Assembly: GCA_016234955.1 (NCBI GenBank)
Contig: JACRNN010000204.1
Coordinates: forward strand, 1 to 39,350
Direction: 5' to 3'
DNA from: Deltaproteobacteria bacterium
Lineage (GTDB): Bacteria > Desulfobacterota > GWC2-55-46
DNA length: 39,350 nucleotides
In this document: piece after piece, positions 5,059 to 34,984 of the stretch
How positions within the stretch are numbered: the first letter of the stretch is position 1
Layout: each line of letters starts with the position of its first letter
The notes under the pieces: model-generated
Databases searched by the model: none
What the model was told of the DNA's origin: nothing
What the model saw: only the letters and a program-made list of their open reading frames with translations
Made by a program: the position numbers and the translations under genes

Positions 5059-6282
5059 TCAGATGATTATCCCGCCCGCCACCGGATACCCGGCGTGTTC
5101 GAGTACGAACCTGCCCGTCTCCGGGATATCCGAGAAGCTGTCCACCGCCACCGGCCTGTCAAGCCTTATCTCCACCTCGGCGACCTCGGCCGGCTTTATC
5201 GTGGACGCGTCGTTTTCGACAATCTCCACCGAGGCCGGGTCGAACCTCCTGTATATCTTCTCGATCCTGCCCTTTACCTCCTGCGTGGCGCACTTGAACG
5301 TGAGAGGGACCCCGAGCTTGTAGTCCTTGTCCACCATCCAGAAGATGTTCGCGCGCACCGAGTCCGTTATAGTCGAAGTCACCGCATCGACGATTATATC
5401 GCCCCTTTTAAGGCCGTCACCCTCTACGCGTATCCCTATGCACTCCGTGGCCTGGGCCTCGGTCAGCCCGTCTTCGAGGAACTTCCTTATCTCAAGCACT
5501 CTCGCGGCAGCCTTGCCTGGCAGGATGAAGACGTCCTGCCCTTTCCTCAGGACGCCTGCCTCCACGCGCCCCACGGCTATCTCGCCGCCGTCCAGGTCGT
5601 ACATGTCCTGCACCGGGAACCTGAGCCCCTTTTCCTCCACCTTCAACGCCCTGAAACTGTCGAGGGCCTGCAGCACCGTAGGGCCCTGATACCAGGAGAG
5701 GTTTTCCGTCTTTTTCGCGACGTTCTCGCCCTTGATGGCCGAGATGGGTATGACGTAAGCGGGGGATATGTTCAGGCGGCCGAGGACCGAGGATATCTCA
5801 TTCTCTATGGACCTGAAGGCCTCCTCGGAGTATCCGGCGAGGTCCATCTTGTTTACGAGCACGGCGACCTGCCTGACGCCGAGGAGCCCGAGTATGTAGC
5901 AGTGCCTCAATGTCTGCTCCCGGATGCCCTGGCTGATGTCCACAAGGAGGATCGCCGCCTCGGCCTGGGAGACTCCGCTTATCATGTTCTTCAGGAACTC
6001 CTTGTGCCCCGGCGCGTCGATAATCACGTACCTCCTCTTTTCGGTTGAGAAGAAGGTATGGGCTATGTCTATGGTTATGCCCCTCTTCCTCTCCTCCTCG
6101 AGGTTGTCCATCATGAACGCGAACTCGACGTCCTTGCCTTGAAGCGTTGACGCCTTTTTTATCTCATCGAGCTTCTCCGGCGGCAGCGACCCTGTGTCAT
6201 AAAAGAGCCTGCCCACGAGCGTGGATTTGCCGTGGTCGACGTGGCCGACTATGACTATATGAAGGGACTTCTCTTCCATCAT
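5059..6282 (-). CDS. cysN: Sulfate adenylyltransferase GTPase subunit, without APS kinase domain
   Basis: [27 protein letters not shown] motifs and EF-Tu-like domains II/III; ends GRFVL...VAGGII; adjacent to cysD. Confidence 0.88.
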
Positions 6283-6360
6283 TCAATCCTCCTCACTCCT
6301 CGACGCCTTGCATCCGAATCTTTTTGAGCAGCCTGAACAACTTGAGTTTCTCGGCAACCC

Positions 6361-7164
6361 CTACATGTACCCGAGCGACCGGAGCTTCTGCATCGTATAT
6401 GCGTCCTCCTTGTCCTGCGCCCTGCCGGCGCGCTCGGAGGTCTTTGTGGTCTTGAGCTCCTCTATTATCTCGTCCACGCTTGAGGCCTGAGACTCGACCG
6501 GGCCGCAGCAGGGCGCGCAACCTATCGACCTGTACCTCTTGCCTTCCTTGCTGAAGTAGAGCTCGGTCACCGGGATATTCTCCCTTTTTATGTACTCCCA
6601 TATGTCGAGCTCGGTCATGTGGAGTATGGGGTGGATTCTGAAGTGGTTGTCCTCTTCGGTGGTGGATTTGAACTGGTCCCATAGCTCGGCCGGCTGGTCC
6701 TCGTAGTTCCATTTGAAGTCCACGTCCCTCGGGGAAAACACCCTCTCCTTCGCCCTTATCCCGTGCTCGTCCCTCCTGATGCCGAGCAGGAGCGCCTTGA
6801 AGCCGCGCCTGGCTATGGTCTGCTTGAGGGCGTTCGTCTTGAGCTCGTTGCAGCAGTCGAGCTTTGCCCCCTTTGAAGGCCCCATGCCGGCGGCCACCTG
6901 GCCCTCGTTGCGCCCGATTATCAGGTCGAGGCCCCACTTCTTCGCGTACTCGTCCCTGAACCTGTACATCTCCGGGAATTTGTAGGTCGTGTCTATATGG
7001 ATGACGGGGAAGGGTATGCGTCCGAAGAACGCCTTCCTGCAGAGCCAGAGGAGCGTCGTCGAGTCCTTGCCCACGGACCAGAGCATGGCGATGTCCCTGA
7101 ACCTGCTGTACGCCTCGCGTATGATGAATATGCTCCTGTTCTCAAGTTCGGTCAGATGGTCCAT
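6361..7164 (-). CDS. cysD: Sulfate adenylyltransferase catalytic subunit
   Basis: LENRSIFIIREA, PP-loop WSVGKDS, HIDTTYKFPE, GIRRDE..RAKER.FSPR, RIHPIL, YRSIGC.PC, SERAGRAQDKE. Confidence 0.93.
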   Translation of the reverse strand: MDHLTELENRSIFIIREAYSRFRDIAMLWSVGKDSTTLLWLCRKAFFGRIPFPVIHIDTTYKFPEMYRFRDEYAKKWGLDLIIGRNEGQVAAGMGPSKGAKLDCCNELKTNALKQTIARRGFKALLLGIRRDEHGIRAKERVFSPRDVDFKWNYEDQPAELWDQFKSTTEEDNHFRIHPILHMTELDIWEYIKRENIPVTELYFSKEGKRYRSIGCAPCCGPVESQASSVDEIIEELKTTKTSERAGRAQDKEDAYTMQKLRSLGYM

Positions 7165-7203: not shown

Positions 7204-8565
7204 TCAATTACCCTTGAAATTATCAAGTATTAAATCCGTGAGACGCTCTATATGAAGCCTTTGGGAAGGGTTTACCCCGGCCGGGAGTATGCAGTGCGCG
7301 TCGTGTCTCGTGTGCATGCCCATGAAGTGGGTTCTGCCGAAGACCTCGTTCTTCTTAAGGTTCCCCTTGAGGTCATACCCGTCGTTGCCGACGCAGACCA
7401 GGTCGGGGCCCCGGAGGGCCGCGGGGCCGCTGTATAATTCGCGGTTCTCATAGACCCTTTTTATCACCTTGCTTCCGTCGGTATCGGTCATAGCCTCGAG
7501 CGCGGACCTTATCTCCGCCGCGGTTCTCTCTACATCTTGCTCCTTGACGCTCCCAAAGGGGTATCTCTTCTCCGCGTTGATATATATGCGCGCCGGGTCC
7601 ATGGCAAACGCCCTTGATCCGTCCTCCACCTGCTCGTAGTACTCCCTGCCGGAGTTCAGGGTCAAAAAATTATTTTCCCTCAGCCAGGCGTTGACGTAGA
7701 CCTCTTTTTTTATCGGCGTGAATCCGTGGTCCGACATGGTCATGAAAAACCCCTTGCCGTTGGTCTTTGACATGAAGCGCTCAAAGAGCCTCCCTATGGC
7801 CGAGTCCATCTCCCTGTAGAACGACACGAACCTCTCATGGTACCTGTGGGACGCGTCCCTCGCGGCGTCGAAGAAGAAGTGGTGTATCCTGTCGGTCTCG
7901 GTGATGACGCCTATGAAGAGCCCCCAGTCCGGCTCGTCAAGGTAATGCTCGAAGGCCTCCACGCGCTTCTTTAGAGCTAAAAAGGCGTCGTCGAAGAACT
8001 CATCGGGCTTATCCGCCGCCTTTGCCGCGTCTATGTCCGGCATGTACCCTATGGAACTCAGGTAATCGTAGGCGGCCTCCGGGTACGTCCCCTTCCTGAA
8101 GTCCGGGCAGACGAACCCGGCGGTCAGCACCCCGTTCATGGGCCTTGCCGGAAAGGTCTGCGGGACGTTAAGGACGATAGACCTTACGCCCCTGTTGATG
8201 CTACCCCCGCGCCTCTCAAATAGGGTCGAGGTCTTTGCCCCCGCCGTGCCGCCGAGCATCTCCCAGACCGTTGGGGCCAGGACGTTGTCGAAGCTCGGGA
8301 AGCTCATCCTGTAACTCCCCTCTTTCAGCTCCATGAAGCCGTATATGCCGTGCTCTCCGGGGTTTACCCCCGTCATGAAAGATGCCCATGACGTGGACGA
8401 TACGTCTGGGATAGAGGCGTCCATCTGGTTGAGCGTAAAGCCGCTCGACAGTATGGAGCCTATGTTAGGCAATATGCCCGCCTCCGCGTACTCCTTCATG
8501 AGGGTGTAGGGCGCACCGTCTATGCCTATTACGAATGCCTTTTGTTCATCCATATCAGATGCCAT
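7204..8565 (-). CDS. Alkaline-phosphatase superfamily (nucleotide pyrophosphatase/phosphodiesterase-like) protein, cytoplasmic
   Basis: VIGIDGAP, nucleophile region SIPDVSSTSWASFMTGVNPGEHGIYGF, TDRIHH, MSDHGF, GMH; no signal peptide. Confidence 0.85.
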   Translation of the reverse strand: MASDMDEQKAFVIGIDGAPYTLMKEYAEAGILPNIGSILSSGFTLNQMDASIPDVSSTSWASFMTGVNPGEHGIYGFMELKEGSYRMSFPSFDNVLAPTVWEMLGGTAGAKTSTLFERRGGSINRGVRSIVLNVPQTFPARPMNGVLTAGFVCPDFRKGTYPEAAYDYLSSIGYMPDIDAAKAADKPDEFFDDAFLALKKRVEAFEHYLDEPDWGLFIGVITETDRIHHFFFDAARDASHRYHERFVSFYREMDSAIGRLFERFMSKTNGKGFFMTMSDHGFTPIKKEVYVNAWLRENNFLTLNSGREYYEQVEDGSRAFAMDPARIYINAEKRYPFGSVKEQDVERTAAEIRSALEAMTDTDGSKVIKRVYENRELYSGPAALRGPDLVCVGNDGYDLKGNLKKNEVFGRTHFMGMHTRHDAHCILPAGVNPSQRLHIERLTDLILDNFKGN

Positions 8566-8577: not shown

Positions 8578-10692
8578 TCACCCTTCCTTTTCGATTTTGC
8601 AGAGTAGCCCGCGTAGCTGGTACGAGCCGAACGCCGGGTCATACGGGGGGCCGTTGTCAGTCAGCACGTTGGCGTTCGACTCGAACGCGCCGTATAGAGG
8701 GCCGTCCCTCTCCGGGAACCACCATCCGTGCTCGACGCTCGCCACGCCGGGGTGGATTTCCTCGGTCACAAGGGCCTTCATCCTGATAGCGCCCCTGCGC
8801 GTGGAAACCCTCACCCACTCGCCGTTTGATACCCCGCTCCTCCGTGCCGCGTCCGGGTGGAGTTCCACCTGCGGGTCTGGCCGGAGCCTCCTCAGTGAAT
8901 CCACCTGCCTGTGCTCGCTGTGGAAGAACTCCGGCCTGCGGCTGCCGGTGATGAGTATGAGCGGAAATTCCTCCGCGATATCCGGCGCTGAGACCGGGCC
9001 CTCAGGGGGCTCCTTGAACGTCGGCAGGGGGCCGTAGCCCATCCTCTGCAGCGTCTTTGAATATAGCTCGACCTTCCTTGAAGGGGTTCTGAACCCTTGC
9101 TTCTCATACCTCCTGTACTCATGCGGAGGGAAGATGAAGGTCTTTTTCTTCAAATCATCGAAGTTTACGCCGAGCGGCTCGAGCTGGTGGTTTATCACGT
9201 CCTCGATGGTATCCCAGGCGCCGGGCAGCCCGAGCCTCTTTGACAGCTCGTTCATTATCCACTCGTCCTGCATGGACTCGTGGTGGACGGTTATCCTCTG
9301 CTGCGCCATCACCATGTTCTCAACGACGAGCGGGTACCCGATGGCCTGATCGACCTCTGTCCAGAAGGCCGCGGGCAGGACGTAGTCCGCGTGCGCGGCG
9401 GTCGGGGTCATGAAAAGGTCCGTTACCGCGAGGAGGTCGAGCTTCTTGATGCCCTCGTAGACCTCTTTCGAGTTTGCCACGGACGTTAGCGCGTTGTTGC
9501 CGAATATCAGCAAAGCCCTCACGCGGTAGGGGTCGCCCTCCCTCATGGCCCTGAAGAGCGCGGGGATGTGGGCGGACGGCATGAAGGCCCTCCAGCCCCC
9601 GAGGAGCTTGAACTCATCGGCCCCGAGCCGCTTCTTTAGCGCCCCCTCCGGGAGCTTGTCCTTCAAGGTCGGGTAGCTCCTTATGATGTTCATCCCGAGG
9701 ATGTCCCCGCCGGGAACGTCGAGGTTGCCGGTTATGGCGCGAAGTATGGCGAGCGCCCTCACGGTCTGGAGCGAGTTTGGGTTCTGCTCTATGCCGAGAC
9801 CCCATTCGAGTATGGCGGGCTTATTAAGCGCATAAGTCCTGGCCGCCGTTATTATCGCTGAAGCGGGGACGGTGGTGACGGACCCTGCCCACTCGGGGGT
9901 GAATGGCGCGACGTGGTTTTTAAGCTCCTCGAACCCGGTTGTCCATCTCTCGACGAACTCCCTGTCGTATATCCCCTCGGCGATTATCACGTTTATCATC
10001 GCGAGGGCGAGGGCGGCGTCCGTGCCGGGCCTGACCGGGAGCCACTGGGCGCACCTTCGGGCCGTCTCGCTCCTCCTCGGGTCTACGGAGATCGCCGCGC
10101 ACCCGGTGTCGAGCGCGCGCTTGACCGAAGGCGCTATCTCGCCGTCAGGCCCTGAGACTAACGGGTTGTGGCCCCAGAAAAGGATGCACCGGGGAGAGAC
10201 CTCGCCGTAATAATCGCCGACCACGAAGCCGCCGTAGGTCAGGTTGCTTACGGTTATCCTCGGGATGAAGCACTGCGCAAGGCCCGGTTCGTACCAGTTG
10301 GGGGTGCCGAGCGCGTTAGCGAACCTCACCACGTGCATGTAGTGGTGGCGTCCCGTGCCCTGCCCGATGGCGATGGATTCCGGCCCTGATTCCCCTCTTA
10401 TCCCGTCTATCCTGCCCGCTATCTCGTTCAGCGCGTCGTCCCACGAAAGCCTCTGCCACTGGCCGTCTCCCCTGCCCTTCTTCCTCTTCATCGGGTATTT
10501 GAGGCGGTCCGGGTGGTTTGCTATATCCGGGGACTTCACCCCCTTGACGCACATCCAGCCCCTGTTCATGGGGGAGTCCGGGTCGCCCTTCACGCTTACT
10601 ACGCGCCCGTCCTTTACGTGGACGAATACGCCGCACCCTCCGTGGCAGACCCTGCACACGCTCCTGAATGTCTTTTCGTTGCCGTCGTTCAT
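8578..10692 (-). CDS. Mo/W-bisPGD oxidoreductase, acetylene-hydratase-like branch
   Basis: 704 aa; N-terminal 4Fe-4S motif CRVCHGGC...CVKG, DRLKYPMKR, LFWGHNP, PGTDAALALA, ADYVLPAA, C-terminal molybdopterin-binding domain FFHSEHRQ...VELHP; no Tat signal. Confidence 0.88.
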   Translation of the reverse strand: MNDGNEKTFRSVCRVCHGGCGVFVHVKDGRVVSVKGDPDSPMNRGWMCVKGVKSPDIANHPDRLKYPMKRKKGRGDGQWQRLSWDDALNEIAGRIDGIRGESGPESIAIGQGTGRHHYMHVVRFANALGTPNWYEPGLAQCFIPRITVSNLTYGGFVVGDYYGEVSPRCILFWGHNPLVSGPDGEIAPSVKRALDTGCAAISVDPRRSETARRCAQWLPVRPGTDAALALAMINVIIAEGIYDREFVERWTTGFEELKNHVAPFTPEWAGSVTTVPASAIITAARTYALNKPAILEWGLGIEQNPNSLQTVRALAILRAITGNLDVPGGDILGMNIIRSYPTLKDKLPEGALKKRLGADEFKLLGGWRAFMPSAHIPALFRAMREGDPYRVRALLIFGNNALTSVANSKEVYEGIKKLDLLAVTDLFMTPTAAHADYVLPAAFWTEVDQAIGYPLVVENMVMAQQRITVHHESMQDEWIMNELSKRLGLPGAWDTIEDVINHQLEPLGVNFDDLKKKTFIFPPHEYRRYEKQGFRTPSRKVELYSKTLQRMGYGPLPTFKEPPEGPVSAPDIAEEFPLILITGSRRPEFFHSEHRQVDSLRRLRPDPQVELHPDAARRSGVSNGEWVRVSTRRGAIRMKALVTEEIHPGVASVEHGWWFPERDGPLYGAFESNANVLTDNGPPYDPAFGSYQLRGLLCKIEKEG

Positions 10693-10710
10693 ATTCTCTG
10701 TTTATATATT

Positions 10711-10789
10711 CTTGTGGTGGCAGGAGTTTCCTCCTGCCACCCTATTTAACAAACCACAAGTCGCCGTCAGGAGGAAACTCATGACGGCG
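10711..10789. repeat. REP-like inverted hairpin doublet
   Basis: GGTGGCAGGAG-TTTC-CTCCTGCCACC (10716-10741, perfect 11 bp) and CGCCGTCAGGAG-GAAA-CTCATGACGGCG (10762-10789, 11/12). Shared core CA(G/T)GAGTTTCCTCCTG in opposite orientations. Confidence 0.7.
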
Positions 10790-10803
10790 CTGAAAATTAC
10801 TAT

Positions 10804-11778
10804 TTATTTACGCCCCCCGCGCGCCACACCCCAGAGCGCCCCGAGCCCGATTGACACGGCTCTCAGAAAAAGCAGCGCCGGAGAGACAACGGCCACTGCC
10901 GGGTCCTTGCGTAAGGCCGTTAGAAAAAAAGGCGTTGACAGGGCGAGAAAAAAGCCCCCCGCCAAAACGAATAGGAGCAACCCGTATGCGGGGAAGAGCA
11001 GGCCCACAGGCAGGCACGCCCCAATCATCATGGCGGCTAATATCTGGAACTTGAGCGTCTGGGGGGTGTATGTGTCCTTGAGCATCTTGTCCGGGAACCT
11101 CTTGTACACGACCATCCTCCAGTACCCCCTCCAGAACTTGAGCCTCGCGTACCTCTTGATCGAGTCCGGGTGGTTGAGGTGGCATACCACGGCCCGCGGG
11201 TTGAAGACCATCCTGTGCCCTGAGCTTGAGAGCCTGTAGGACAGCTCCGTATCCTCGTTGTTGGGCGCCGGAAAGCCCGTGTCAAAGCCGCCCGCCACGT
11301 CAAAGACCTCTTTCCTGAAGGCGGCCGAATAGGTATCGACCATGTCGATGGAGGGGGCCGCCTTCAGCATCTCGAACCTCTCCTCGAACTCGATCTGCGA
11401 GAACCGCGCCACTATGCCTGGCTGTAGAGTCCTGTACGCGCCCTTGACCGCCGAGACCGACGGGTCGGCAAAAGGCCTTGCCATCTCCTTTATCCAGTCG
11501 CTCTCCGGGACGCAGTCCGAGTCGGTAAAGAGGATTATCCCGCCCCTTGCCTCCCTCGCCCCCGCGTTCCTCGCGGCGGCCGGACCGAGGTTTCTCTGCC
11601 GGATGCACTTGACGGAGTAGCCCTTGACGATCAGCGGCGTGGAATCCGTGGATCCGTCGTCCACAACGATGACCTCGTAGCGTCCCTTCCCTACGGTCTG
11701 GTCCCGGAGCGAGCCGAGGCACTTATCTATCGTCCTTGCGGCGTTGTACGCCGGAACTATGACGGAAAACTCTATCAT
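10804..11778 (-). CDS. GT2 family glycosyltransferase with C-terminal TM helices
   Basis: SVIVPAYNA, VVDDGSTD, GPAAARNAG, FTDSDC, NEDTELSYRL; hydrophobic C-terminus. Confidence 0.92.
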   Translation of the reverse strand: MIEFSVIVPAYNAARTIDKCLGSLRDQTVGKGRYEVIVVDDGSTDSTPLIVKGYSVKCIRQRNLGPAAARNAGAREARGGIILFTDSDCVPESDWIKEMARPFADPSVSAVKGAYRTLQPGIVARFSQIEFEERFEMLKAAPSIDMVDTYSAAFRKEVFDVAGGFDTGFPAPNNEDTELSYRLSSSGHRMVFNPRAVVCHLNHPDSIKRYARLKFWRGYWRMVVYKRFPDKMLKDTYTPQTLKFQILAAMMIGACLPVGLLFPAYGLLLFVLAGGFFLALSTPFFLTALRKDPAVAVVSPALLFLRAVSIGLGALWGVARGGRK

Positions 11779-11782: not shown

Positions 11783-13243
11783 TCACGTGCTCTGGAGCCT
11801 TGAGCCGCGTATCAGGTATTTGGCGAAGGTCCGGAGGGACTTAAGCGTCCTTCTTATCTCCCTCGGGTGCGCTATCATCTGGGATAATTTATAGAGGATA
11901 TAGCCCGGCCTCAGATAGAACTCCCTCCTCGCGTCGTCGCAGAACCTGACAAGCTCCTCGGCGCTCAACTCCTCTGTCCTTATGACGGTATTGTGGAGCC
12001 CCTCCTGGGTTATCCATTCGGAGAAGTCCGAGCTCCTTATGAGGCCCCTCTGCCTGTACCAGTCGTACGCCTCGGTGCCGGGGTAAACCATCACCGGGTA
12101 GAACTGGACGGTATCGGGGTTGAGGCCCTTTGCGAGGTCGAGGGTCTGCTTGAGCGTCTGCCTCGTCTCGCCGGGGAGCCCGGCCATGAAGCATCCGTGT
12201 ATGAGCATACCGGCCCTCCTGGCGTTGTCCATGAACCCCTTCATCTCCGCGACCTTCGTCTTCTTCTTCATGTTGTCGAGTATCGTCTGGCTACCGCTCT
12301 CAAAGCCGACGCAAAGGGAGCGGCACCCGGCCTCTCTCATCAGGCGCATGGTGTCGTAATCTATCCCTATCCTCGAATTCGCCGTCCAGGATATCTTTAT
12401 CCCCTTCTTGATTATCAGCTCGGACAGGGCCCTGCACCTCTTCTTGTCCACCGTAAGGGTGTCGTCCTCGAAAAAGACCGCCTTTGCCTGTGGGAAGTTC
12501 TCGACGATGTACTCCATCTCCTCCACCACGTTCTCAACGGACCTCAACCTGTAGCCCCTGCCCATGAGCGTCTGAGGGTAGACGCAGAATGTGCACGGGA
12601 ACGGGCACCCCCTGCTCGTCGTTATCGTCACCATCGGGAATAGCGCGTTCGGGTTGAAGTAGTTCTCTATGCGCAAGAACTTCCTGTAGACCTTGCTCAC
12701 GAACGGCAGTGTGTCGAGGTCGTCGAGGAACGGCCTTTTGGGGGTATTGACGAGGGAGCCGTCCTTGAGGTAGCTTATGCCGGGCACGATTCTAAAGTCC
12801 CCTTTTTTCTCAAGCGCTCCGGCTACCTCCACCACGGTCTGCTCGTACTCGTAGCGCGCAACGGCGTCGATCCTCTTGTCGAGCTTGAGCGTCTCTGCCG
12901 GGAGCGCCGAGACGTGTGTGCCAACGAGGAGCACGAACGCCGACGGGCGCTCGTCCTTGAGGCGGCCTCCCACAGCGACGTCGTTATTGATAGACGGCGT
13001 GGAGGTGTCCATCACTATGAGGCCGGGGTTGAAGACTCTCGCCCTCTTAACGACGTCCTCTACGGTCAATCCGTCGGCCGGCGCGTCTATGAAGTCGACC
13101 TCGAAGCCCTTGTCCATGGCCGCGCCCGCGGCGTAGGCGAGCCACATCGGGAAGTAGAGCGTCCCGCTCTTTGTGACGGCCGGGCTCCTCTGCGGCCGGG
13201 AGAACTTCTTCAGAAACGGCGGGTTCAAAAACAGTATCTTCAT
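11783..13243 (-). CDS. Cobalamin-binding radical SAM enzyme, HpnJ-like
   Basis: MKILFLNPP..., YFPMWLAYAA, DTSTPS, RGCPFPCTFC, FFEDDT, VGFESG, GCFMAGLPGET, YPGTE. Confidence 0.88.
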   Translation of the reverse strand: MKILFLNPPFLKKFSRPQRSPAVTKSGTLYFPMWLAYAAGAAMDKGFEVDFIDAPADGLTVEDVVKRARVFNPGLIVMDTSTPSINNDVAVGGRLKDERPSAFVLLVGTHVSALPAETLKLDKRIDAVARYEYEQTVVEVAGALEKKGDFRIVPGISYLKDGSLVNTPKRPFLDDLDTLPFVSKVYRKFLRIENYFNPNALFPMVTITTSRGCPFPCTFCVYPQTLMGRGYRLRSVENVVEEMEYIVENFPQAKAVFFEDDTLTVDKKRCRALSELIIKKGIKISWTANSRIGIDYDTMRLMREAGCRSLCVGFESGSQTILDNMKKKTKVAEMKGFMDNARRAGMLIHGCFMAGLPGETRQTLKQTLDLAKGLNPDTVQFYPVMVYPGTEAYDWYRQRGLIRSSDFSEWITQEGLHNTVIRTEELSAEELVRFCDDARREFYLRPGYILYKLSQMIAHPREIRRTLKSLRTFAKYLIRGSRLQST

Positions 13244-14484
13244 CAGACCACTTCCCTCGTTATTTTATCGTACTGCCTGATCTGCTCCGCCATGAAGCCG
13301 AGCTCACCCTTGAATTCTATGGCCTTGGTCGGGCACGCAAGGAAGCAGTACTGGCATCCTATGCACCCGTTGTCCCTGTCCTCGATCGTCTGCGGGAGCT
13401 TGAGCTCCACGGGGCAGTAGTCCGCGCACCTGGTGCACCCCTTCTCGCAGAGCTCTCTCTTCCACTTGAACCCCTCGAACCTCATCTCGTCCTTTATGAA
13501 GTTGTCCTGCCGGAGCCCCGTTAAAAAGAGCATCTTCCCGAACGCCTCCGTGGAGCAGAGGTAGTTGAAGGCCGCGGTGTTCCGCACGGCGAGGAAGTAC
13601 TTCTGGCGCCTGGGGCTGTGGATGAAGGAGGCGAAGGCGTTGGCTATCGGCTCCTTGAACTTCTTCTTGACGCCTTCGAGGTCGAGCGCGTCGGCGAACT
13701 CGCGGTGGCGAGCGGTCAGCAGGCCATGGTCTTCGGCGGCCTTGAGGGTGCGCACCTTCCTGTAATCGAAGTCCGCGATCCTCGCGCAGACGAGGTCTAT
13801 GAGATATGGGTCGACCCCGAATATGACGACCCCGGTGCGAAGCGGAGTGCCCCTCGTAGGCCCGAGCCCCTCCATGGCGATAAGGCCGTCGACGATGTGG
13901 AGGTGCGGCTTAATCCTCTTATTTATGTTAAGTATGTTCCTGGCGAGGGACCCGTGGGTCTTTTTCTTGTTCTCCTGGCCTACAAGGCACCCCATCATGT
14001 TCTTGAGGCAGACCGTCATGCCGGCCTCGAAGTGGGTCTTGAGCTTCGGCATGTTTATGAAAAAATCGGCCTCCACGCACTCCTTCGCCACCGAGGCCTT
14101 GACGCCGTCCTCGAAATCGACGCTTACGGTCTCGGAGTAGTTGAGGTCGGCTATCTTGACACCGTAATGCCTGGCGAGCCTGTCGTAGGAGAGCCTTGAG
14201 ATGACGCTTATGCCGTTCCTGTAAAAGCCGCTGTTGGTGCCCTCGGCCACCGTGATGTCGGAATAGCCGTAGCCCTTGAGCGCCTTTATGACCGCGGCCA
14301 CGAGCCTCAAATCCGTGGTGTTGCCTGTGAGCGCGTTCATGTTGCTGTTCATGTTCGGCTTTATGAGTATCCGCGCCGACCTCGATGCGGGCAGTATGTC
14401 GCGGTACCTTTCGAGCGTATCCGCAACTGCCTTTACTATGTCCTTGATCGAGTATGCCTTTACTATATCAAGCCTTGGACCCAT
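13243..14484 (-). CDS. DUF362 protein fused to a C-terminal 2x[4Fe-4S] ferredoxin domain
   Basis: ILIKPN, AEG, INMPKLKTH, LKNMMG, IVDGLIAMEG.GP; C-terminal CEKGCTRCADYCP and CIGCQYCFLACP. Start moved to ATG 14484 (RBS GGAGAAGGA). Confidence 0.83.
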   Translation of the reverse strand: MGPRLDIVKAYSIKDIVKAVADTLERYRDILPASRSARILIKPNMNSNMNALTGNTTDLRLVAAVIKALKGYGYSDITVAEGTNSGFYRNGISVISRLSYDRLARHYGVKIADLNYSETVSVDFEDGVKASVAKECVEADFFINMPKLKTHFEAGMTVCLKNMMGCLVGQENKKKTHGSLARNILNINKRIKPHLHIVDGLIAMEGLGPTRGTPLRTGVVIFGVDPYLIDLVCARIADFDYRKVRTLKAAEDHGLLTARHREFADALDLEGVKKKFKEPIANAFASFIHSPRRQKYFLAVRNTAAFNYLCSTEAFGKMLFLTGLRQDNFIKDEMRFEGFKWKRELCEKGCTRCADYCPVELKLPQTIEDRDNGCIGCQYCFLACPTKAIEFKGELGFMAEQIRQYDKITREVV

Positions 14485-15643
14485 TGTTCCTTCTCCCGGT
14501 CGCCTCAAGCAGGTCCGCTACCGCGTCAAATACGTCGTCTACGCCGATACTCTCCATGCACTCATTGTAAGGGGTGTGCCTGCAGACGTCCTCGTCGCAG
14601 GAGTGTCTGCACGGGAAGTCCTTTTCAACGACCCTGTGCGCGTTGCCGCAGGGCCCGGTCTCGTTGCTCTTGGACGGGCCGAATATGGCTACGGTCGGGG
14701 TCTTCCGAGCCGAGGCCAGATGGAGCGGCGCGCTGTCGTTCGTTACGAATACGTCCAGCCTGCCGATTACGGCGGCGCTCGTCCTGATGTCGGTCTTCCC
14801 GGCGAGGCTTACCCCCTTGCGGGACATCCCGCCCAATATCTCCTCTATTAGAGAGGCCTCCTGCGCGGAACCGGTGAAATAGACCCGCGCCCCTAATTCC
14901 CTCACAAGACGGTCTGCGAGGAGCGCGAACTTTTCCGTTCCCCAGCACTTGAGTCCCTTCCTCCCGCCGGGGTGTATGCCGGCGGCAAGTGGTGTGCTTA
15001 TGCCGCCGATACCGAGCGCCTCAATCGCCTTTTTCACTTCACTGCCAGAGGCCGTAAGCCCCCAGTCCAGCTTATCGACGGGAGCGCCTAAAAACCTTAC
15101 TATGTCGAGGTGGTACTCCACCTTGTGCTTGACCTCCTTGAACGGCACCACATGGGTAAGGAGAAACCCTCCGCCTCCCACGTTGTAGCCGACCCTGTAC
15201 CTCGACCTGCTCGGATAGGCGATGAAGAGGATGTCCCTTATATCCCCCCTGGCCTCTATGACGAGGTCGTACCTCTTTTTCCTGAGCGCCTTGAGGAAGC
15301 CGAGGTATTCCCTCAATCCTCCGCCCGGATAGAACCAGAAGGCGTCGTACGCGATCACCGAGTCGACGCAGGGGTTGTCCTTTAAGAGGTCCTTTGCACC
15401 GGTTGAGGTCAGGAAGGTAATCCTGCCTTCGGGGAATAGCTCCCGCAGGGGCCTCAATATTGGCAGGGTCATGACGACGTCGCCGATATAGGCGGTGCGC
15501 ACGACGAGTATCTCGCGTACGCCCTTTGCTTCTATCCTTCCATTGCCTTTAAGGATATTGAGCGGGGACCAGAGAATGCGGCCTATGGCGTCCGCGACCC
15601 TTGTGGCGATCCTCTTCTTCCTGTTGATTATCTTGTAGAACAC
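14468..15643 (-). CDS. GT9 (heptosyltransferase-like) glycosyltransferase
   Basis: ILVVRTAYIGDVVMTLP, YDLVIEARGD, IHPGG..KCW, FVTNDSAPLHLASA, AIFGPS. Confidence 0.9.
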   Translation of the reverse strand: MFYKIINRKKRIATRVADAIGRILWSPLNILKGNGRIEAKGVREILVVRTAYIGDVVMTLPILRPLRELFPEGRITFLTSTGAKDLLKDNPCVDSVIAYDAFWFYPGGGLREYLGFLKALRKKRYDLVIEARGDIRDILFIAYPSRSRYRVGYNVGGGGFLLTHVVPFKEVKHKVEYHLDIVRFLGAPVDKLDWGLTASGSEVKKAIEALGIGGISTPLAAGIHPGGRKGLKCWGTEKFALLADRLVRELGARVYFTGSAQEASLIEEILGGMSRKGVSLAGKTDIRTSAAVIGRLDVFVTNDSAPLHLASARKTPTVAIFGPSKSNETGPCGNAHRVVEKDFPCRHSCDEDVCRHTPYNECMESIGVDDVFDAVADLLEATGRRNNGSKA

Positions 15644-25035: not shown

Positions 25036-26646
25036 CTACTCCATGTAACCGAGGTTCTTGAGCTTTTCCGCTATATCTTTTTCCTGCTCCTCCGACAGTT
25101 TTTTAGCCTCGGTCTCATCCGTGGCCGCGTCGTCGGTGTAACGTACCGGTTTACGGGCAAGGTATTCCGGCTCCAGCGCCTGTTCCAGCGCCGCTCCGTC
25201 CATATACGCCGGGACGGCCATATCCATAAGATGGAGTATGGTGGGCGTAACGTCTATTATCCTCGGGTTGTCCAGGACAACGCCCTTTCTTACCGCCGGG
25301 CCTTTGAGCAGGAAGATGCCGTGCCTCTCATGCCTGCCGGACCATCTGTGCGACAGGAAGAGAGAGTCCTCGAAGGCCTTCCTGAAAAAAAGGAACTCGT
25401 TCGGGGCGATTATCTGGTACCCGGGAGAGCAGATGAGAGTCAGGTCCGGCGCCTTATGGGCGTGCTCCCCGGAGTATATATCTTCCCTCCTGTAGACCTC
25501 TGCAATAACCCTTTTCCCGGCCCCATCCCTTATCTCGCATAGCTCTCCGATGAGCCTGCTTGTAACGTCCAGGTACTGCGCGGGCGAAAGGTCGGGGTTT
25601 ATATAGATCGCCCCGGCAACGCCTTCGGAAAAGGCGGTCGTCTTTTCAAAATCGATAAGCGAGTAAAAGACGTTGATGGACTCATCCCCGCCTGGCTTTG
25701 TCCTGCCCCATCCGGCGTTGGGAAGCACCTGCCTGAGGGACCTGGCCAGGCCGCGCATTATCCTGGAACCATTTTTCGCCCTCAACGCCGAGGCCATATC
25801 CTGCTTCAACGTGAGATAGCCCTTTTTAAGGAGCCAGTTATTGAGAAAGAACGCCGCATTCAGCGGACCGGAGCCGTGGTCCGACACCATCATCACGTTC
25901 GTATCCGGCCCGGCCTTCTCAATGATCCTGCCGAGCGCGGCGTCGAGCCTTATGTACACCTCCGCGACAGCGCCGCCGTATCTGGAGTGCTCGGGGTGCC
26001 GGGGGTCGAGGTACTTCCAGAAGAAGTGCTGGACGCGGTCCGTGGCCATGAAGACGGCGAAAAAGAAGTCCCACGCCTTGCGCTCAATCAGATACAGGCA
26101 GACCTTCTCCCTGTAATCCATCATCTCTACTATGCGCTTCAGGTATGCTCCGGGGTCGCTCTCCTGCCTGCACTCAATCATGTATTTGCCGAAGAGGCCC
26201 TCTATCTCGGCCTTGAGCCCCGGCGGGGTGATGAAGTCGTCCGCGCCGTCAGGCGTGAACATCCCTGAGATGCTAAACCCGTCGAACTCATCCGGCGGAT
26301 AGGTCAACGGGACGTTCATCACGCCCGACTTCCTGCCCTTGTCGCTCAGGATGGACCAGACCGGCCTTACCGCGCGCATGGTCGCGTTGGAGAAGACGAT
26401 CCTCTTCTGCTCGGGCCTGTAGACCATGGCATCGTAGATGGCGTGCTTGCCGGGGTTGACCCCGGTGGATATGGAGGTCCAGGCTACCGGCGTCAGCGGT
26501 GGTATCGTGGATTCAAGCCTGCCCCAGGCGCCATCCCGCATCAGACTTGCCACGTTGGGCATCAATCCCCTGTCCACAAGGGGCTTGATGATGTCGAAGG
26601 TGGCCCCGTCCCAGCCCACCACTATGGTCCTTGTCCTCTCCATCAT
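25036..26646 (-). CDS. Alkaline-phosphatase superfamily (nucleotide pyrophosphatase/phosphodiesterase-like) protein, cytoplasmic
   Basis: VVGWDGATF, STIPPLTPVAWTSISTGVNPGKH, TDRVQHFFW, VSDHGSG, SGRH...G, DVTPTIL, MDG, tail KLKNLGYME. Confidence 0.88.
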   Translation of the reverse strand: MMERTRTIVVGWDGATFDIIKPLVDRGLMPNVASLMRDGAWGRLESTIPPLTPVAWTSISTGVNPGKHAIYDAMVYRPEQKRIVFSNATMRAVRPVWSILSDKGRKSGVMNVPLTYPPDEFDGFSISGMFTPDGADDFITPPGLKAEIEGLFGKYMIECRQESDPGAYLKRIVEMMDYREKVCLYLIERKAWDFFFAVFMATDRVQHFFWKYLDPRHPEHSRYGGAVAEVYIRLDAALGRIIEKAGPDTNVMMVSDHGSGPLNAAFFLNNWLLKKGYLTLKQDMASALRAKNGSRIMRGLARSLRQVLPNAGWGRTKPGGDESINVFYSLIDFEKTTAFSEGVAGAIYINPDLSPAQYLDVTSRLIGELCEIRDGAGKRVIAEVYRREDIYSGEHAHKAPDLTLICSPGYQIIAPNEFLFFRKAFEDSLFLSHRWSGRHERHGIFLLKGPAVRKGVVLDNPRIIDVTPTILHLMDMAVPAYMDGAALEQALEPEYLARKPVRYTDDAATDETEAKKLSEEQEKDIAEKLKNLGYME

Positions 26647-28073: not shown

Positions 28074-28148
28074 GGCACAACGCTCAAGGTGATATGTTTA
28101 TTGCCGACGAAGTTGTATTGCGTCGGCATGGTGTTTTTCAGCGCCCTG

Positions 28149-30326: not shown

Positions 30327-30478
30327 TTTAACACCCCTCGGATGGGTTGCAGGTTTACGGCAGCCGCACGTTTCAAAAAAGCTTCGGCGATAAACGGCTC
30401 AGCCGCGTTTGAAAAAGCATTAAAAGCTCACGACCATAGGGTTTTCCGCTCGCCCGGACGCGGGCCGACGGGGATAGG

Positions 30479-31999: not shown

Positions 32000-32733
32000 T
32001 TGGCTGGAAAAAGGCAAATCGATACCGGGCAGCTTACTAACTTTGAAGGGTTAGAGAACGACAACTCCACCGCCGTTTGACGCCCGGCCAGCTTCTCGAT
32101 GCAATGAAAAGCCTCCGGCAGGCGGTCCTTTATGCTTCCGGCCCTGTGGGTGTCGCTCGCCAGTATATGCGCAAGGTTGTTTTTAACCAGCGCCTTCACC
32201 GCGCCCTTGACCTTCCTGCCGTACTCGCCGAGCAGGCTGCCGGCGTTTATCTGCACAAGCACTCCCCTGTCCACGAACTCCTTGACGGCCGTATAATCCC
32301 TTATGACCTCGTCGCACCTCTCCGGATGGCACCAGATAGGGGTTATGCCCGAAGTCATCAGCTTGAAAAAGACGTCATGGGCGTACATGGGTATGTCATA
32401 TGGAGGGAACTCTATCAACGCGTACTTCCCCATGCCGTTTATCGTGAGCCTCCTGTCGGAGAGCACCGCCGGCAGGTCGTGGCTGAACCAAAGCTCAGCC
32501 CCGAGGGCTATGGCTATGCCGATATTCCTGGCGGCCACAGCCTCCTGAAGCTCCTTGAAGAGGCAGGCCACTCTATCGAGGTCCATGCCGCTATACGGGA
32601 AGTGCGGGGTCAGGACCACCCCCCTGACCCCGGCCTCAGCCGCCTCTTTCATTATTACGAGGGACTCGCCCAGGTCCCCGGCGCCGTCGTCCACGCCGGG
32701 AAGGATGTGGGTATGTATGTCGAAAAATTCCAT
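31996..32733 (-). CDS. CpsB/CapC PHP-family tyrosine phosphatase
   Basis: DIHTHILPGVDDGA, LTPH, GAE, HPER, QINAGS, LASDTH. Confidence 0.93.
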   Translation of the reverse strand: MEFFDIHTHILPGVDDGAGDLGESLVIMKEAAEAGVRGVVLTPHFPYSGMDLDRVACLFKELQEAVAARNIGIAIALGAELWFSHDLPAVLSDRRLTINGMGKYALIEFPPYDIPMYAHDVFFKLMTSGITPIWCHPERCDEVIRDYTAVKEFVDRGVLVQINAGSLLGEYGRKVKGAVKALVKNNLAHILASDTHRAGSIKDRLPEAFHCIEKLAGRQTAVELSFSNPSKLVSCPVSICLFPAK

Positions 32734-32758
32734 AGTAGGCCCCGATCGGATGTCCCGT

Positions 32759-34954: not shown

Positions 34955-34984
34955 TTGATTCCCCTACGCGCAAAGTTTTGAAGT

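What the first reader, a model, noticed from the sequence alone, without database searches (positions are those of the whole stretch)
8578..10692. Stand-alone acetylene-hydratase-like Mo/W enzyme inside a glycan biosynthesis operon
Seen: cytoplasmic single subunit, no adjacent beta/gamma respiratory subunits, cluster motif CxxC-H-xxC, probable Cys metal ligand in GLAQCF, 12 bp from the next gene. Known: acetylene hydratase has catalytic Asp13 directly after the second Cys (His here), and gut catechol dehydroxylases are relatives of this branch. Inference: not an acetylene hydratase, but possibly a biosynthetic dehydroxylase or hydratase acting on a sugar, cyclitol or acyl precursor, which would be a new role for the DMSO-reductase family.
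Basis: partly seen in the sequence, partly recalled or inferred. Interest (0 to 1): 0.75.

Follow-up and report, generated by a model that had tools for sequence, protein, structure and literature searches.

The report
Molybdenum enzyme inside envelope-glycan gene clusters
A cytoplasmic molybdenum/tungsten enzyme related to acetylene hydratase is a conserved part of cell-envelope sugar-polymer gene clusters in many anaerobic bacteria, and in some of them it is fused to an acid-activating module, so it probably edits a building block of that polymer.

Summary
ORF 8578-10692 (-) encodes a 704-aa, signal-less bis-pyranopterin (DMSO-reductase family) enzyme. It has a C13xxC16-H17-xxC20...C48 [4Fe-4S] motif and Cys141 as the likely metal ligand. 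Its closest solved relative is acetylene hydratase (AH): E 6.5e-116, TM 0.92.

It is not an AH. Asp13 is His in 24 of 24 relatives, Trp179 and Trp472 are replaced, and the family is a separate clade.

It belongs to a tight family (59-93% identity) found in at least six phylum-level groups. In 61 of 79 loci a gene of the same glycan supercluster lies within three genes: GT2, HpnJ-like B12 radical-SAM, DUF362-ferredoxin, Wza, phosphoglycosyl transferase, acyl-AMP ligase, IolM-type dehydrogenase or sulfate-activation genes. No respiratory beta/gamma subunits were seen.

Four family members are fused as Mo enzyme-adenylation-carrier-condensation.

Best reading: a ferredoxin-fed tailoring oxidoreductase, most likely a dehydroxylase or hydroxylase, acting on a carboxylic-acid or cyclitol-like building block of an envelope glycan. 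The chemistry is inferred, not shown.

Biosynthetic relatives have a precedent in the CC-1065/yatakemycin clusters. I found no paper describing a role in glycan synthesis or a fusion to an NRPS-like module.

The parts
8578..10692 (-). 704-aa cytoplasmic Mo/W bis-pyranopterin enzyme (P0001), the finding itself
   Evidence: ORF. Three Pfam domains above cut-off. Closest PDB entry is AH 2e7z. AF2 model pLDDT 95.4.
10633..10656 (-). Codons for C13-R-V-C16-H17-G-G-C20, the N-terminal [4Fe-4S] motif, with His in place of AH Asp13 (the fourth Cys, C48, is at 10549-10551)
   Evidence: CxxCHGGC is present in 79 of 80 family ORFs from the loci.
10270..10272 (-). Codon of Cys141, the probable Mo/W ligand (GLAQCFIPR)
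   Evidence: Aligns with the AH ligand Cys. Kept in 24 of 24 family and 7 of 7 AH-clade sequences. At least 90% conserved in 136 sequences of the wider radiation.
10709..10802 (-). About 94 nt with two strong hairpins, inserted between the GT2 and the Mo gene. Not part of the enzyme and absent from the closest locus.
   Evidence: RNA fold z = -7.18. Absent from L001, where the two genes abut. No Rfam family matched.
10804..11778 (-). GT2 glycosyltransferase with C-terminal TM-like segments, the most frequent upstream partner of the Mo gene
   Evidence: Pfam. TM-like segments at 242-311. Immediate upstream neighbour in 27 of 75 loci. The gap is -31..+13 nt in 21 of 27 loci.
11783..13243 (-). 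HpnJ-like B12-binding radical-SAM enzyme
   Evidence: TIGR03471 scores 423.5 bits, below the cut-off of 577.6. Within 3 genes of the Mo gene in 24 of 79 loci.
13243..14508 (-). DUF362 protein with a C-terminal 2x[4Fe-4S] ferredoxin domain, a candidate electron carrier
   Evidence: Pfam. Within 3 genes in 15 of 79 loci and present in 22 of 79. Binding to the Mo enzyme was not tested.
14468..15643 (-). GT9 (heptosyltransferase-family) glycosyltransferase
   Evidence: Pfam. Present in 16 of 79 loci.
7204..8565 (-). Cytoplasmic alkaline-phosphatase-superfamily (type I phosphodiesterase) protein, 12 nt downstream of the Mo gene
   Evidence: Pfam. Immediate downstream neighbour in 10 of 71 loci. No PDB relative found.
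5059..7164 (-). CysD (6361-7164) and CysN (5059-6282), sulfate adenylyltransferase. These are the last genes of the cluster before tRNA-Arg.
   Evidence: CysD: NF003587 scores 354.7 bits against a cut-off of 195. CysN: TIGR02034 scores 318 bits, just below its cut-off of 336.1. CysD lies within 3 genes of the Mo gene in 8 of 79 loci.
36945..38456 (-). Acyl-AMP/CoA ligase. It is the free-standing counterpart of the adenylation domain that is fused to the Mo enzyme in P0390-P0393.
   Evidence: Pfam. 32% identical over its full length to the A domain of P0390, E 2e-75. Within 3 genes of the Mo gene in 10 of 79 loci.
35788..36954 (-). Zn-dependent dehydrogenase, an IolM (scyllo-inosose 3-dehydrogenase) equivalog
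   Evidence: NF041097 scores 521.9 bits against a cut-off of 450. Relatives lie next to the Mo gene in other loci.
26643..39325 (-). Assembly and export genes of the same cluster: phosphoglycosyl transferase (38534-39325, cut by the window end), Wza (34985-35812), Wzc (32759-34954), CpsB phosphatase, Wzy-like protein and Wzx flippase (26643-28073)
   Evidence: Pfam and NCBIfam. Wza lies within 3 genes of the Mo gene in 18 of 79 loci and the phosphoglycosyl transferase in 14 of 79.

Best explanation
What it is (shown). It is a complete, cytoplasmic, single-polypeptide Mo or W bis-pyranopterin enzyme with one [4Fe-4S] cluster (Cys13/16/20/48) and Cys141 as metal ligand. It belongs to a tight, previously unnamed clade of the AH-like radiation. 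The clade signatures are CxxCHGGC, GQGTGRHH and A[QN]CFIPR.

Where it works (shown by conserved gene order). It is a standing component of a Wzx/Wzy-type envelope-glycan supercluster found in several phyla of anaerobes.

What it does (inferred). It tailors a building block of that glycan. The favoured substrate is a carboxylic acid that the neighbouring or fused adenylation enzyme then activates and a condensation or acyltransferase step attaches to a sugar. The acid could be a polyhydroxylated carbocyclic acid (inosose- or shikimate-type) or a hydroxy acid. The alternative substrate is the glycosyl or cyclitol intermediate made by the translationally coupled GT2 and the HpnJ-like radical-SAM enzyme.

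How (inferred by analogy with relatives). Two electrons enter from a ferredoxin, possibly the DUF362-2x[4Fe-4S] protein, pass through the N-terminal cluster and the pterin, and reach the metal. The metal cleaves a C-OH bond (reductive dehydroxylation) or, run the other way, installs a water-derived hydroxyl. His17 serves as second-sphere acid/base where AH has Asp13. A remodelled polar pocket (Gly18, Arg115-His116-His117, Arg145) would bind an anionic, polyhydroxylated substrate.

My odds. Real bisPGD enzyme: 0.97. Dedicated role in this glycan pathway: 0.8. Substrate is the activated acid or its precursor: about 0.5. Redox C-O chemistry: about 0.4.
For: Fold and cofactor residues:
- Domains, alignment and model support a bisPGD enzyme.
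- The family is 59-93% identical across 80 species-level loci.

Gene order, with n = 79 loci in which a Mo ORF was called:
- Within 3 genes of the Mo gene: GT2 in 35, HpnJ-like in 24, Wza in 18, DUF362-Fd in 15, phosphoglycosyl transferase in 14, AlkP in 12, AMP-ligase in 10, IolM-like in 7.
- At least one cluster-type gene lies within 3 genes in 61 of 79 loci. Pfam adds L014, L047 and L075 and a sugar nucleotidyltransferase in L018.
- GT2 and the Mo gene abut or overlap in 21 of 27 loci.
- Several different arrangements occur, all inside glycan clusters: HpnJ-GT2-Mo, AMP-IolM-Mo-Wza, Wza-Mo-EF-hand and Mo-PGT. They are spread over the family tree and over at least 6 phylum labels.

Rosetta-stone fusion:
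- Four 90%-clusters (P0390-P0393) are 58-61% identical over 100% of the query. Their order is Mo-A-T-C and the family motifs are intact.
- They nest inside the family (100* support).
- In L075 the order is Mo, then AMP-ligase, then an ACP-KS module.

Carbocycle hints:
- An IolM equivalog lies in the window cluster and in L045, L056 and L064.
- In L080, DAHP synthase, DHQ synthase and type II dehydroquinase lie directly upstream of the Mo gene.
- An HpnJ-like enzyme is present.

Redox reading:
- Paralogues of the radiation are fused to a ferredoxin/[FeFe]-hydrogenase-like domain, a GltD-like NAD(P)H module and a Fer4_11 domain.
- One paralogue is fused to an aromatic amino-acid lyase.
- The nearest characterised relatives of AH are catechol dehydroxylases, including soluble TAT-less ones that sit next to a small 4Fe-4S protein, and a dehydroxylase in the CC-1065 cluster (PMC7028382).
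Against: - No activity, metal content or substrate has been measured.
- I could not place the family relative to the catechol dehydroxylases, because no sequences of them were available to me.
- Fifteen or so of the 79 loci show no glycan gene within three genes. These include several anammox loci, Marichromatium L067, and L025, L028, L043, L055, L061, L062 and L063.
- The high identity between phyla suggests horizontal spread of whole cassettes, so shared gene order is not fully independent evidence.
- The fusion and the AMP-ligase adjacency are confined to one 13-row clade. The larger clade is instead coupled to GT2, which leaves the substrate ambiguous.
- DAHPS/DHQS/DHQase next to the Mo gene is seen in a single locus. 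DAHPS is present in 4 of 79 loci.
- The A domain of the fusion is only 32% identical to the window's ligase.
- The closest structure, AH, is a non-redox enzyme.
- Sulfate-activation and sulfotransferase genes are also recurrent neighbours.
Confidence: 0.4

Rival explanations
1. Sulfur-oxyanion enzyme of the sulfation branch. It interconverts an inorganic or ester sulfur species (sulfite/sulfate, thiosulfate, polysulfide or a sulfate ester) to feed or edit sulfation of the glycan. It would work with the adjacent AlkP-family protein and CysDN.
For: - AlkP453 is the immediate downstream neighbour in 10 of 71 loci, usually followed by CysD-CysN.
- An APS kinase lies next to the Mo gene in L005, and a sulfotransferase in L044.
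- Four to five sulfotransferase genes lie upstream of HpnJ-GT2-Mo in L027 and L039.
- Polysulfide reductase PsrA is the second-best structural relative.
- The family-specific pocket residues are Arg/His-rich, as expected for an anion.
Against: - Sulfate-activation genes lie within 3 genes in only 8-12 of 79 loci, against 35 for GT2.
- The closest locus, L001, has lost the cysDN core but keeps the Mo gene intact.
- The Mo-A-T-C fusion points to an organic acid.
- There is no Tat signal and no PsrB/PsrC partners.
Confidence: 0.15
2. Same pathway, but a different substrate. The enzyme acts on the lipid- or nucleotide-linked sugar or cyclitol made by the GT2 and the HpnJ-like radical-SAM enzyme, for example by deoxygenating it, and not on the acid handled by the AMP-ligase.
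For: - GT2 is the commonest neighbour and is translationally coupled to the Mo gene.
- HpnJ-GT2-Mo is the dominant arrangement in the larger clade.
- By name, HpnJ is the hopanoid-associated radical-SAM enzyme. From recall, it forms a cyclitol ether from a glucosamine unit.
Against: - The fusion partner in four family members is an A-T-C module, not a glycosyltransferase.
- In the basal clade the enzyme occurs with AMP-ligase and IolM-like genes and without GT2 or HpnJ-like genes nearby.
Confidence: 0.2
3. Non-redox hydratase or dehydratase working like acetylene hydratase. It would add or remove water at an unsaturated bond of a precursor, and the Fe-S cluster would only keep the metal reduced.
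For: - AH is by far the closest solved structure.
- The enzyme has no obligatory redox partner gene in many loci.
Against: - Asp13, which is specific for the AH subfamily and essential for its activity (PMC12096430), is His in 24 of 24 family sequences.
- Trp179 and Trp472 are replaced.
- The family lies outside the CxxCD clade.
- Paralogues are fused to electron-transfer modules.
Confidence: 0.12
4. Electron-input module. It oxidises a small donor and reduces the DUF362-ferredoxin, which then supplies the four B12 radical-SAM enzymes of the cluster.
For: - The best partial NCBIfam match is formate dehydrogenase alpha, at 340.9 bits.
- The window cluster holds four B12 radical-SAM genes and a ferredoxin-domain protein.
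Against: - The score is far below the cut-off of 666.
- The residue after the ligand Cys is Phe, where FdhF has His (alignment).
- Many loci with the Mo gene show no radical-SAM gene nearby, for example the Wza-Mo-EF-hand and Mo-PGT-Mla arrangements.
- This reading does not explain the A-T-C fusion.
Confidence: 0.08
5. Hitchhiker. It is a housekeeping reductase with no part in glycan synthesis, and its position reflects inheritance of a mobile cassette.
For: - Identity between phyla is high, so cassettes probably moved horizontally.
- About 15 of 79 loci show unrelated neighbours.
Against: - The gene keeps glycan neighbours through at least four different arrangements.
- It overlaps the GT2 stop codon in many loci.
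- It is covalently fused to an A-T-C module in four clusters.
Confidence: 0.05

Closest known systems
Acetylene hydratase (Pelobacter acetylenicus, PDB 2e7z)
   Same: - Same fold and size (TMq 0.92, rmsd 2.8 A, 33% identity).
- Cytoplasmic monomer.
- N-terminal [4Fe-4S] on four Cys.
- Cys ligand at the same position.
- Trp293 equivalent kept.
   Different: - Asp13 is His, Ile14 is Gly, Ile142 is Phe, Trp179 is Pro/Ala/Ser and Trp472 is Val.
- It forms a separate clade.
- All 150 representatives (50%-identity clusters) listed score 404 bits or more against the query, above AH's 391.2 bits.
- Its gene context is biosynthetic, whereas AH (from recall) serves growth on acetylene.
Catechol dehydroxylases of gut Actinobacteria (Dadh/Hcdh; the soluble Dodh/Cldh type) and the putative dehydroxylase of the CC-1065/yatakemycin clusters
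   Same: - Described as the branch closest to AH.
- The Gordonibacter type lacks a TAT signal, is small and sits next to a small 4Fe-4S protein.
- The Streptomyces homologue acts in biosynthesis.
(All from PMC7028382, passages read.)
   Different: - Kinship with this family was not tested, because I had no sequences of them.
- Their substrates are catechols of diet, host or an alkaloid-type antibiotic.
- None is reported in a glycan cluster or fused to an A-T-C module.
Polysulfide/thiosulfate reductase catalytic subunit (PsrA, PDB 2vpw; PhsA)
   Same: Second-best sequence and structure match (E 1.1e-84, TM 0.85). Cys-ligated metal and an FS0 cluster.
   Different: PsrA is Tat-exported and works with PsrB/PsrC (from recall). 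Here there is no signal peptide and no partner genes. The PhsA model scores 299 bits against a cut-off of 694.
HpnI/HpnJ step of hopanoid side-chain biosynthesis
   Same: The conserved neighbours are a membrane-anchored GT2 and a B12 radical-SAM enzyme whose best model is HpnJ (E 1.1e-126).
   Different: Both score below the equivalog cut-offs (HpnJ 423.5 against 577.6; HpnI E 2.6e-5). No other hopanoid genes are in the window. No Mo enzyme is part of the known hopanoid pathway (from recall).

Membership tests
DMSO-reductase (bis-pyranopterin guanine dinucleotide) superfamily | Three-domain architecture: Fe4S4 domain, molybdopterin domain and dinucleotide-binding domain | tested here: met
   PF04879 58.1 bits, PF00384 138.9 bits and PF01568 84 bits, all above their cut-offs. 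Foldseek TM is 0.74-0.92 to many family structures.
DMSO-reductase (bis-pyranopterin guanine dinucleotide) superfamily | Protein ligand to Mo/W and four Cys for the proximal [4Fe-4S] | tested here: met
   C13, C16, C20, C48 and C141 are invariant in 24 of 24 family sequences and at least 90% conserved in 136 sequences of the radiation.
DMSO-reductase (bis-pyranopterin guanine dinucleotide) superfamily | Bound Mo or W bis-pterin cofactor | not testable with these tools
   Needs metal and cofactor analysis of the purified protein.
Acetylene hydratase subfamily | Asp directly after the second cluster Cys (Asp13). It is AH-specific, and the D13A variant is inactive (PMC12096430). | tested here: not met
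   His17 in 24 of 24 family sequences, against Asp in 7 of 7 AH-clade sequences. CxxCHGGC is present in 79 of 80 family ORFs.
Acetylene hydratase subfamily | Second-shell residues Trp179, Trp293 and Trp472 (PMC7970554) | tested here: not met
   Trp179 is Pro in 17, Ala in 6 and Ser in 1. Trp472 is Val in 23 and Ala in 1. Only Trp293 is kept, in 24 of 24.
Acetylene hydratase subfamily | Falls inside the AH (CxxCD) clade | tested here: not met
   The family clade and the AH clade each have 100 support and lie apart, both in FastTree (148 rows) and in IQ-TREE quick (51 rows).
Catechol dehydroxylases (Dadh/Cldh type) | Clade membership with Dadh, Hcdh, Cadh, Dodh and Cldh | not tested
The supplements of PMC7028382 were not opened.
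Catechol dehydroxylases (Dadh/Cldh type) | [quoted passage not shown] | tested here: inconclusive
   The Eggerthella-type features are absent. The Gordonibacter-type pattern is loosely matched: there is no TAT signal, and a ferredoxin-domain protein lies two genes away in the window and in 22 of 79 loci.
Polysulfide/thiosulfate reductase (PsrA/PhsA) | Curated family score, Tat export and PsrB/PsrC partner genes | tested here: not met
   NF012032 scores 299.1 bits against a cut-off of 694. No RR motif. No partner genes.
Formate dehydrogenase alpha (FdhF type) | Curated family score and a Sec/Cys-His pair at the metal | tested here: not met
   TIGR01591 scores 340.9 bits against a cut-off of 666.25. 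The query has C141-F142 where FdhF has C-H (alignment).
Any NCBIfam-curated protein family | Score at or above a curated cut-off | tested here: not met
   27 families matched and the 25 shown are all below their cut-offs. No curated model covers this clade.

The most novel reading that the evidence does not exclude
A molybdenum/tungsten bis-pterin enzyme is an integral tailoring step of bacterial cell-envelope glycan biosynthesis in anaerobes. It performs oxygen-independent removal or insertion of a hydroxyl on a carbocyclic (inosose- or shikimate-derived) or hydroxy acid. That acid is then adenylated, carried on a phosphopantetheine arm and condensed onto a sulfated polysaccharide or glycolipid. 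To my knowledge this would be the first Mo/W enzyme assigned to glycan biosynthesis and the first bisPGD domain found fused to an NRPS-like A-T-C module.
Probability: 0.3. Interest if true: 0.85.

Novelty: new variant of a known kind. Interest (0 to 1): 0.7.

Why it matters
Mo/W bis-pterin enzymes are known from respiration, assimilation, catabolism and, by genetics, one antibiotic pathway. They are not known from the synthesis of cell-envelope polymers.

If this family edits a glycan building block, three things follow:
- It shows how strict anaerobes (anammox bacteria, cable bacteria, magnetotactic Nitrospirota, syntrophs) carry out hydroxyl editing that aerobes do with oxygenases.
- It flags a widespread, unstudied, probably sulfated and acylated envelope polymer.
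- It makes envelope chemistry dependent on molybdenum or tungsten supply.

The natural Mo-A-T-C fusion offers a direct experimental handle. The specificity of the adenylation domain should name the substrate.

Tried and rejected
Regulatory RNA:
- A Moco riboswitch or other RNA upstream of the gene was looked for and not found. Rfam shows only a tRNA at gathering score and nothing meaningful in 10600-10900.
- The two hairpins there are an insertion that is absent from L001.

Respiratory partner:
- NapC/NirT (4168-4680) is rejected as a partner. It lies beyond tRNA-Arg and a terminator-like hairpin. It has no counterpart in 80 loci and is absent from L001.

Structure models:
- The first AF2 model, built on 24 close relatives, was poor (pLDDT 62.5) and was not used.
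- The model built on 136 sequences was used instead.

Neighbouring proteins:
- The PDB and Atlas look-ups added nothing beyond Pfam. These covered DUF362-Fd and AlkP453.

Complex prediction:
- The job was never accepted because the queue was full, so no verdict exists.

- PMC3067604 is not held.

Literature:
- Searches linking this family, or any molybdopterin enzyme, to glycan clusters, HpnJ, DUF362, Kuenenia or cable bacteria found nothing relevant.
- A search for IolM with inosose found nothing.
- All of these are limited to the open-access library.

Repeats:
- The repeat scan of the window gave only paralogy between the radical-SAM genes and one 28-nt direct repeat.


Full report
**1. The observation**

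ORF 8578..10692 on the minus strand encodes 704 aa from an ATG. Pfam finds the three domains of a bis-pyranopterin oxidoreductase above their cut-offs: Fe4S4 at 6-59, Molybdopterin at 63-485 and the dinucleotide-binding domain at 578-687.

The N-terminus reads MNDGNEKTFRSV-C13-RV-C16-H17-GG-C20, so there is no room for a Tat signal. None of 78 readable relatives has a twin-arginine motif before the cluster motif. No TM-like segment was found.

The stop codon lies 12 nt before the ATG of the next gene. The flanking genes are a GT2 glycosyltransferase and an alkaline-phosphatase-superfamily protein, not Fe-S or membrane-anchor subunits.

**2. Relation to acetylene hydratase (AH)**

- The best solved relative by sequence is AH (2e7z_A, E 6.5e-116, 391 bits). 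Next come polysulfide reductase PsrA (1.1e-84) and FdhF (3e-70).
- An AlphaFold model built on 136 diverse relatives has mean pLDDT 95.4. It superposes on AH with TMq 0.92 and rmsd 2.8 A. PsrA follows at TM 0.85.
- According to a 2025 review (PMC12096430, passages read), AH binds W through Cys141 and holds its cluster on Cys9/12/16/46. It depends on Asp13, a residue specific for the AH subfamily whose Ala variant is inactive. A DFT paper (PMC7970554, passages read) lists Trp179, Trp293, Trp472, Ile113, Ile142 and Phe611 around the site.
- I aligned 24 family members with 7 AH-clade sequences. The AH-clade sequences are recognised by CxxCD, and one of them, P0275, scores 696 bits to 2e7z.
  - All cluster Cys and the ligand Cys are kept.
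  - Asp13 is His in 24 of 24, and Ile14 is Gly in 24 of 24.
  - Ile142 is Phe.
  - Trp179 is Pro, Ala or Ser, and Trp472 is Val.
  - Only Trp293 is kept.
- The loop that carries Ile113 in AH reads G-T-G-R115-H116-H117 here (alignment). H116, H117 and H120 are invariant in the family and rare outside it.
- The defining catalytic features of AH are therefore not met.

**3. Place in the superfamily**

- A search of 1.84 billion representatives gave 3007 proteins at E <= 1e-30. The 150 best score 404-716 bits, above the 391 bits of AH itself.
- Among those 150, the residue after the second Cys is His in 34 and Asp in 4.
- In a FastTree of 148 rows and an IQ-TREE quick tree of 51 rows, the family is a tight clade with support 100 and a stem of about 0.3. 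Its sisters are two uncharacterised representatives, P0122 and P0123. The CxxCD clade is a separate, fully supported group elsewhere in the tree.
- No NCBIfam model reaches its cut-off. The best are Fdh-alpha (340.9 against 666) and PhsA (299 against 694).
- Paralogues of the radiation are fused to electron-transfer or aromatic-acid modules:
  - ferredoxin plus an [FeFe]-hydrogenase-like domain (P0126);
  - GltD-like NAD(P)H modules (P0181, P0204);
  - Fer4_11 (P0152) and BtrH_N (P0198);
  - an aromatic amino-acid lyase (P0397).

**4. The family and its neighbours**

- The 120 best database hits are 66-90% identical and come from Deltaproteobacteria, Nitrospirota, Planctomycetota (including Kuenenia) and others.
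- A scan of one genome per species returned 205 confirmed relatives. The best 80 loci (59-93% identity) were kept.
- I called ORFs, clustered them and drew gene orders. A Mo ORF was called in 79 loci.
- At least one gene of the window's own cluster types lies within three genes in 61 of the 79.
- Within three genes I count: GT2 35, HpnJ-like radical-SAM 24, Wza 18, DUF362-ferredoxin 15, phosphoglycosyl transferase 14, AlkP453 12, AMP-ligase 10, EF-hand protein 10, CysD 8, IolM-like dehydrogenase 7.
- Of the 18 loci without such a gene:
  - L014 has three glycosyltransferases, L047 a GT9-HAD protein and L075 an AMP-ligase and a radical-SAM gene.
  - L018 has a sugar nucleotidyltransferase.
  - The rest have unrelated neighbours. 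These are several anammox loci, L025, L028, L043, L055, L061, L062, L063 and Marichromatium L067.
- The GT2 gene abuts or overlaps the Mo gene (-31 to +13 nt) in 21 of 27 loci where it is the upstream neighbour.
- No NrfD-type or Fer4_11 subunit turned up in any Pfam scan of neighbours.
- The recurring arrangements are spread over the family tree and over at least six phylum labels:
  - GT9 > DUF362-Fd > HpnJ-like > GT2 > Mo > AlkP > CysD > CysN;
  - PGT > AMP-ligase > IolM-like > Mo > Wza > Wzc;
  - Wza > Mo > EF-hand;
  - Mo > PGT.
- In the window all of these genes lie in one cluster of about 34 kb. It runs from the phosphoglycosyl transferase (39325) to CysN (5059) and ends at tRNA-Arg.

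**5. The fusion**

- A search restricted to longer proteins found four clusters (P0390-P0393, 1778-1781 aa) that are 58-61% identical to the query over its whole length.
- Their domain order is Mo enzyme (1 to about 700), AMP-binding (732-1209), PP-binding (1243-1309, found by Pfam in 3 of 4) and Condensation (1331-1776).
- They keep CRxCHGGC and GQGTGRHH in 4 of 4, and ANCFIPR in 3 of 4 by my pattern.
- They have a YGL[ST]S carrier motif and an HHIxxDA condensation motif.
- They nest inside the family, within the 13-row clade whose free-standing members lie next to AMP-ligase and IolM-like genes (support 100).
- Their adenylation domain is 32% identical to the window's AMP-ligase over its full length (E 2e-75).
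- In L075 the Mo gene is followed by an AMP-ligase and, three genes on, an ACP-ketosynthase module.
- This is the strongest single clue that the enzyme handles, makes or modifies a carboxylic acid that is then activated and transferred.

**6. Clues to the kind of acid or acceptor**

- The Zn-dehydrogenase next to the AMP-ligase in the window passes the NCBIfam equivalog cut-off for IolM, scyllo-inosose 3-dehydrogenase (521.9 against 450). Those of L045, L056 and L064 pass as well. Seven others have IolM as best hit but score below the cut-off.
- In L080 a DAHP synthase, a 3-dehydroquinate synthase and a type II dehydroquinase lie between the IolM-like gene and the Mo gene. DAHP synthase occurs in four loci.
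- The radical-SAM partner is HpnJ-like. That HpnJ builds a cyclitol from a sugar is recalled, not looked up.
- Together these point, weakly, to a polyhydroxylated carbocycle.
- The AMP-ligase itself is closest to fatty-acid ligase models without reaching a cut-off, and LpxL-like acyltransferases are common in the loci (17 of 79). A hydroxy fatty acid is therefore an open alternative.

**7. Sulfation**

- CysD/CysN without an APS kinase follow the Mo gene and AlkP453 in the window, together with three cytoplasmic alkaline-phosphatase-superfamily proteins.
- Elsewhere there are an APS kinase (L005), a sulfotransferase (L044) and four to five sulfotransferase genes (L027, L039) beside the module.
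- This supports a sulfated product and keeps a sulfur-oxyanion role alive as a rival.
- However, sulfate-activation genes are much rarer neighbours than GT2. The closest locus, L001, has lost the cysDN core while keeping the Mo gene.

**8. Mechanism**

Shown:
- the cofactor-binding residues, the fold and the cytoplasmic location;
- the conserved glycan context;
- the fusion.

Inferred:
- electrons from a ferredoxin pass through the N-terminal cluster to the metal;
- the metal breaks or makes a C-OH bond on the building block;
- His17 acts as acid/base;
- the Arg/His-rich, Gly-widened pocket binds an anionic polyol.

Basis for the inference: the nearest characterised relatives of AH are catechol dehydroxylases. 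They include soluble, TAT-less enzymes next to a small 4Fe-4S protein, and a homologue needed for CC-1065 biosynthesis (PMC7028382, passages read). Paralogues of the radiation are also wired to redox modules.

I could not test kinship with the dehydroxylases, because none of their sequences was available.

**9. Novelty**

- None of eight full-text searches turned up a paper that describes such a link. They combined molybdopterin or acetylene hydratase with polysaccharide, glycosyltransferase, radical SAM, HpnJ, DUF362, Kuenenia, cable bacteria or sulfotransferase.
- These searches cover only the open-access library. Supplements were not opened.
- No curated family model covers the clade.
- A biosynthetic role for the branch has a precedent in the CC-1065 cluster. 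The glycan context and the A-T-C fusion do not have one, as far as I could see.
- I rate it a new variant of a known kind.

**10. Limits**

- Gene order was read from my own simple ORF calls.
- The loci are one per species but are probably related by cassette transfer.
- The contexts of the fused proteins and of the sister clades were not seen.
- The complex prediction never entered the queue.

Noticed in passing
window 10709-10802: The 111-nt gap between the GT2 and the Mo gene holds an insertion of about 94 nt that folds into two strong hairpins (z = -7.18). Their inner sequences are reverse complements of each other. The element is absent from the closest locus L001, where the two genes abut. 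No T-run follows it and it matches no Rfam family. It may be a small palindromic mobile or REP-like element.
   Followed up: partly
P0390-P0393 (not in the window): Family members are fused as Mo enzyme-adenylation-carrier-condensation (about 1780 aa). I know of no described bisPGD domain in an NRPS-like protein. Their genomic context was not seen.
   Followed up: partly
window 35788-36954 (-): A Zn-dehydrogenase passes the NCBIfam equivalog cut-off for IolM (scyllo-inosose 3-dehydrogenase, named for a catabolic enzyme). It sits between an acyl-AMP ligase and Wza in a biosynthetic cluster.
   Followed up: partly
window 5059-8565, 17811-19550 and 25036-26646 (-): CysD/CysN occur without an APS kinase, together with three signal-less alkaline-phosphatase/sulfatase-superfamily proteins. 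This could mean sulfation directly from APS by an AlkP-type transferase. In L001 the cysDN core (window 5183-6992) is deleted.
   Followed up: partly
window 2827-2854 and 4794-4821; 1740-2654 (+); 4865-4941 (-): A 28-nt direct repeat (89% identical) brackets an unknown 271-aa protein and a NapC/NirT tetrahaem cytochrome. It lies next to a XerC-type integrase and tRNA-Arg(CCT). The stretches 2908-3861 and 4150-4851 are missing from L001. It looks like a small variable island.
   Followed up: partly
window 11783-13243, 19671-20945, 20942-22579 and 22444-24228 (-): One cluster holds four B12-binding radical-SAM genes. The last two are paralogues (repeats D1 and D2). Their called ORFs overlap by 136 nt, so the TTG start of 20942-22579 is probably called too far upstream.
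   Followed up: no
L030:12297-12857 and nine other loci: An EF-hand calcium-binding protein of about 186 aa lies directly beside the Mo gene in 10 of 79 loci, mostly in magnetotactic Nitrospirota (Wza > Mo > EF-hand).
   Followed up: no
window 28149-30326 (-): A 725-aa protein has an N-terminal hydrophobic segment and only weak beta-propeller repeat matches. It has no Pfam family and no counterpart in the 80 loci.
   Followed up: no
P0126, P0181, P0204, P0198, P0397 (not in the window): Paralogues of the same radiation are fused to an [FeFe]-hydrogenase-like domain, GltD-like NAD(P)H modules, a BtrH_N domain or an aromatic amino-acid lyase. This is a large, mostly uncharacterised set of cytoplasmic Mo/W enzymes.
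   Followed up: partly
L039:about 10001-12561: The Mo gene of this locus is split into two ORFs, and the second lacks the Fe-S motif. It may be a frameshift or an assembly error.
   Followed up: no
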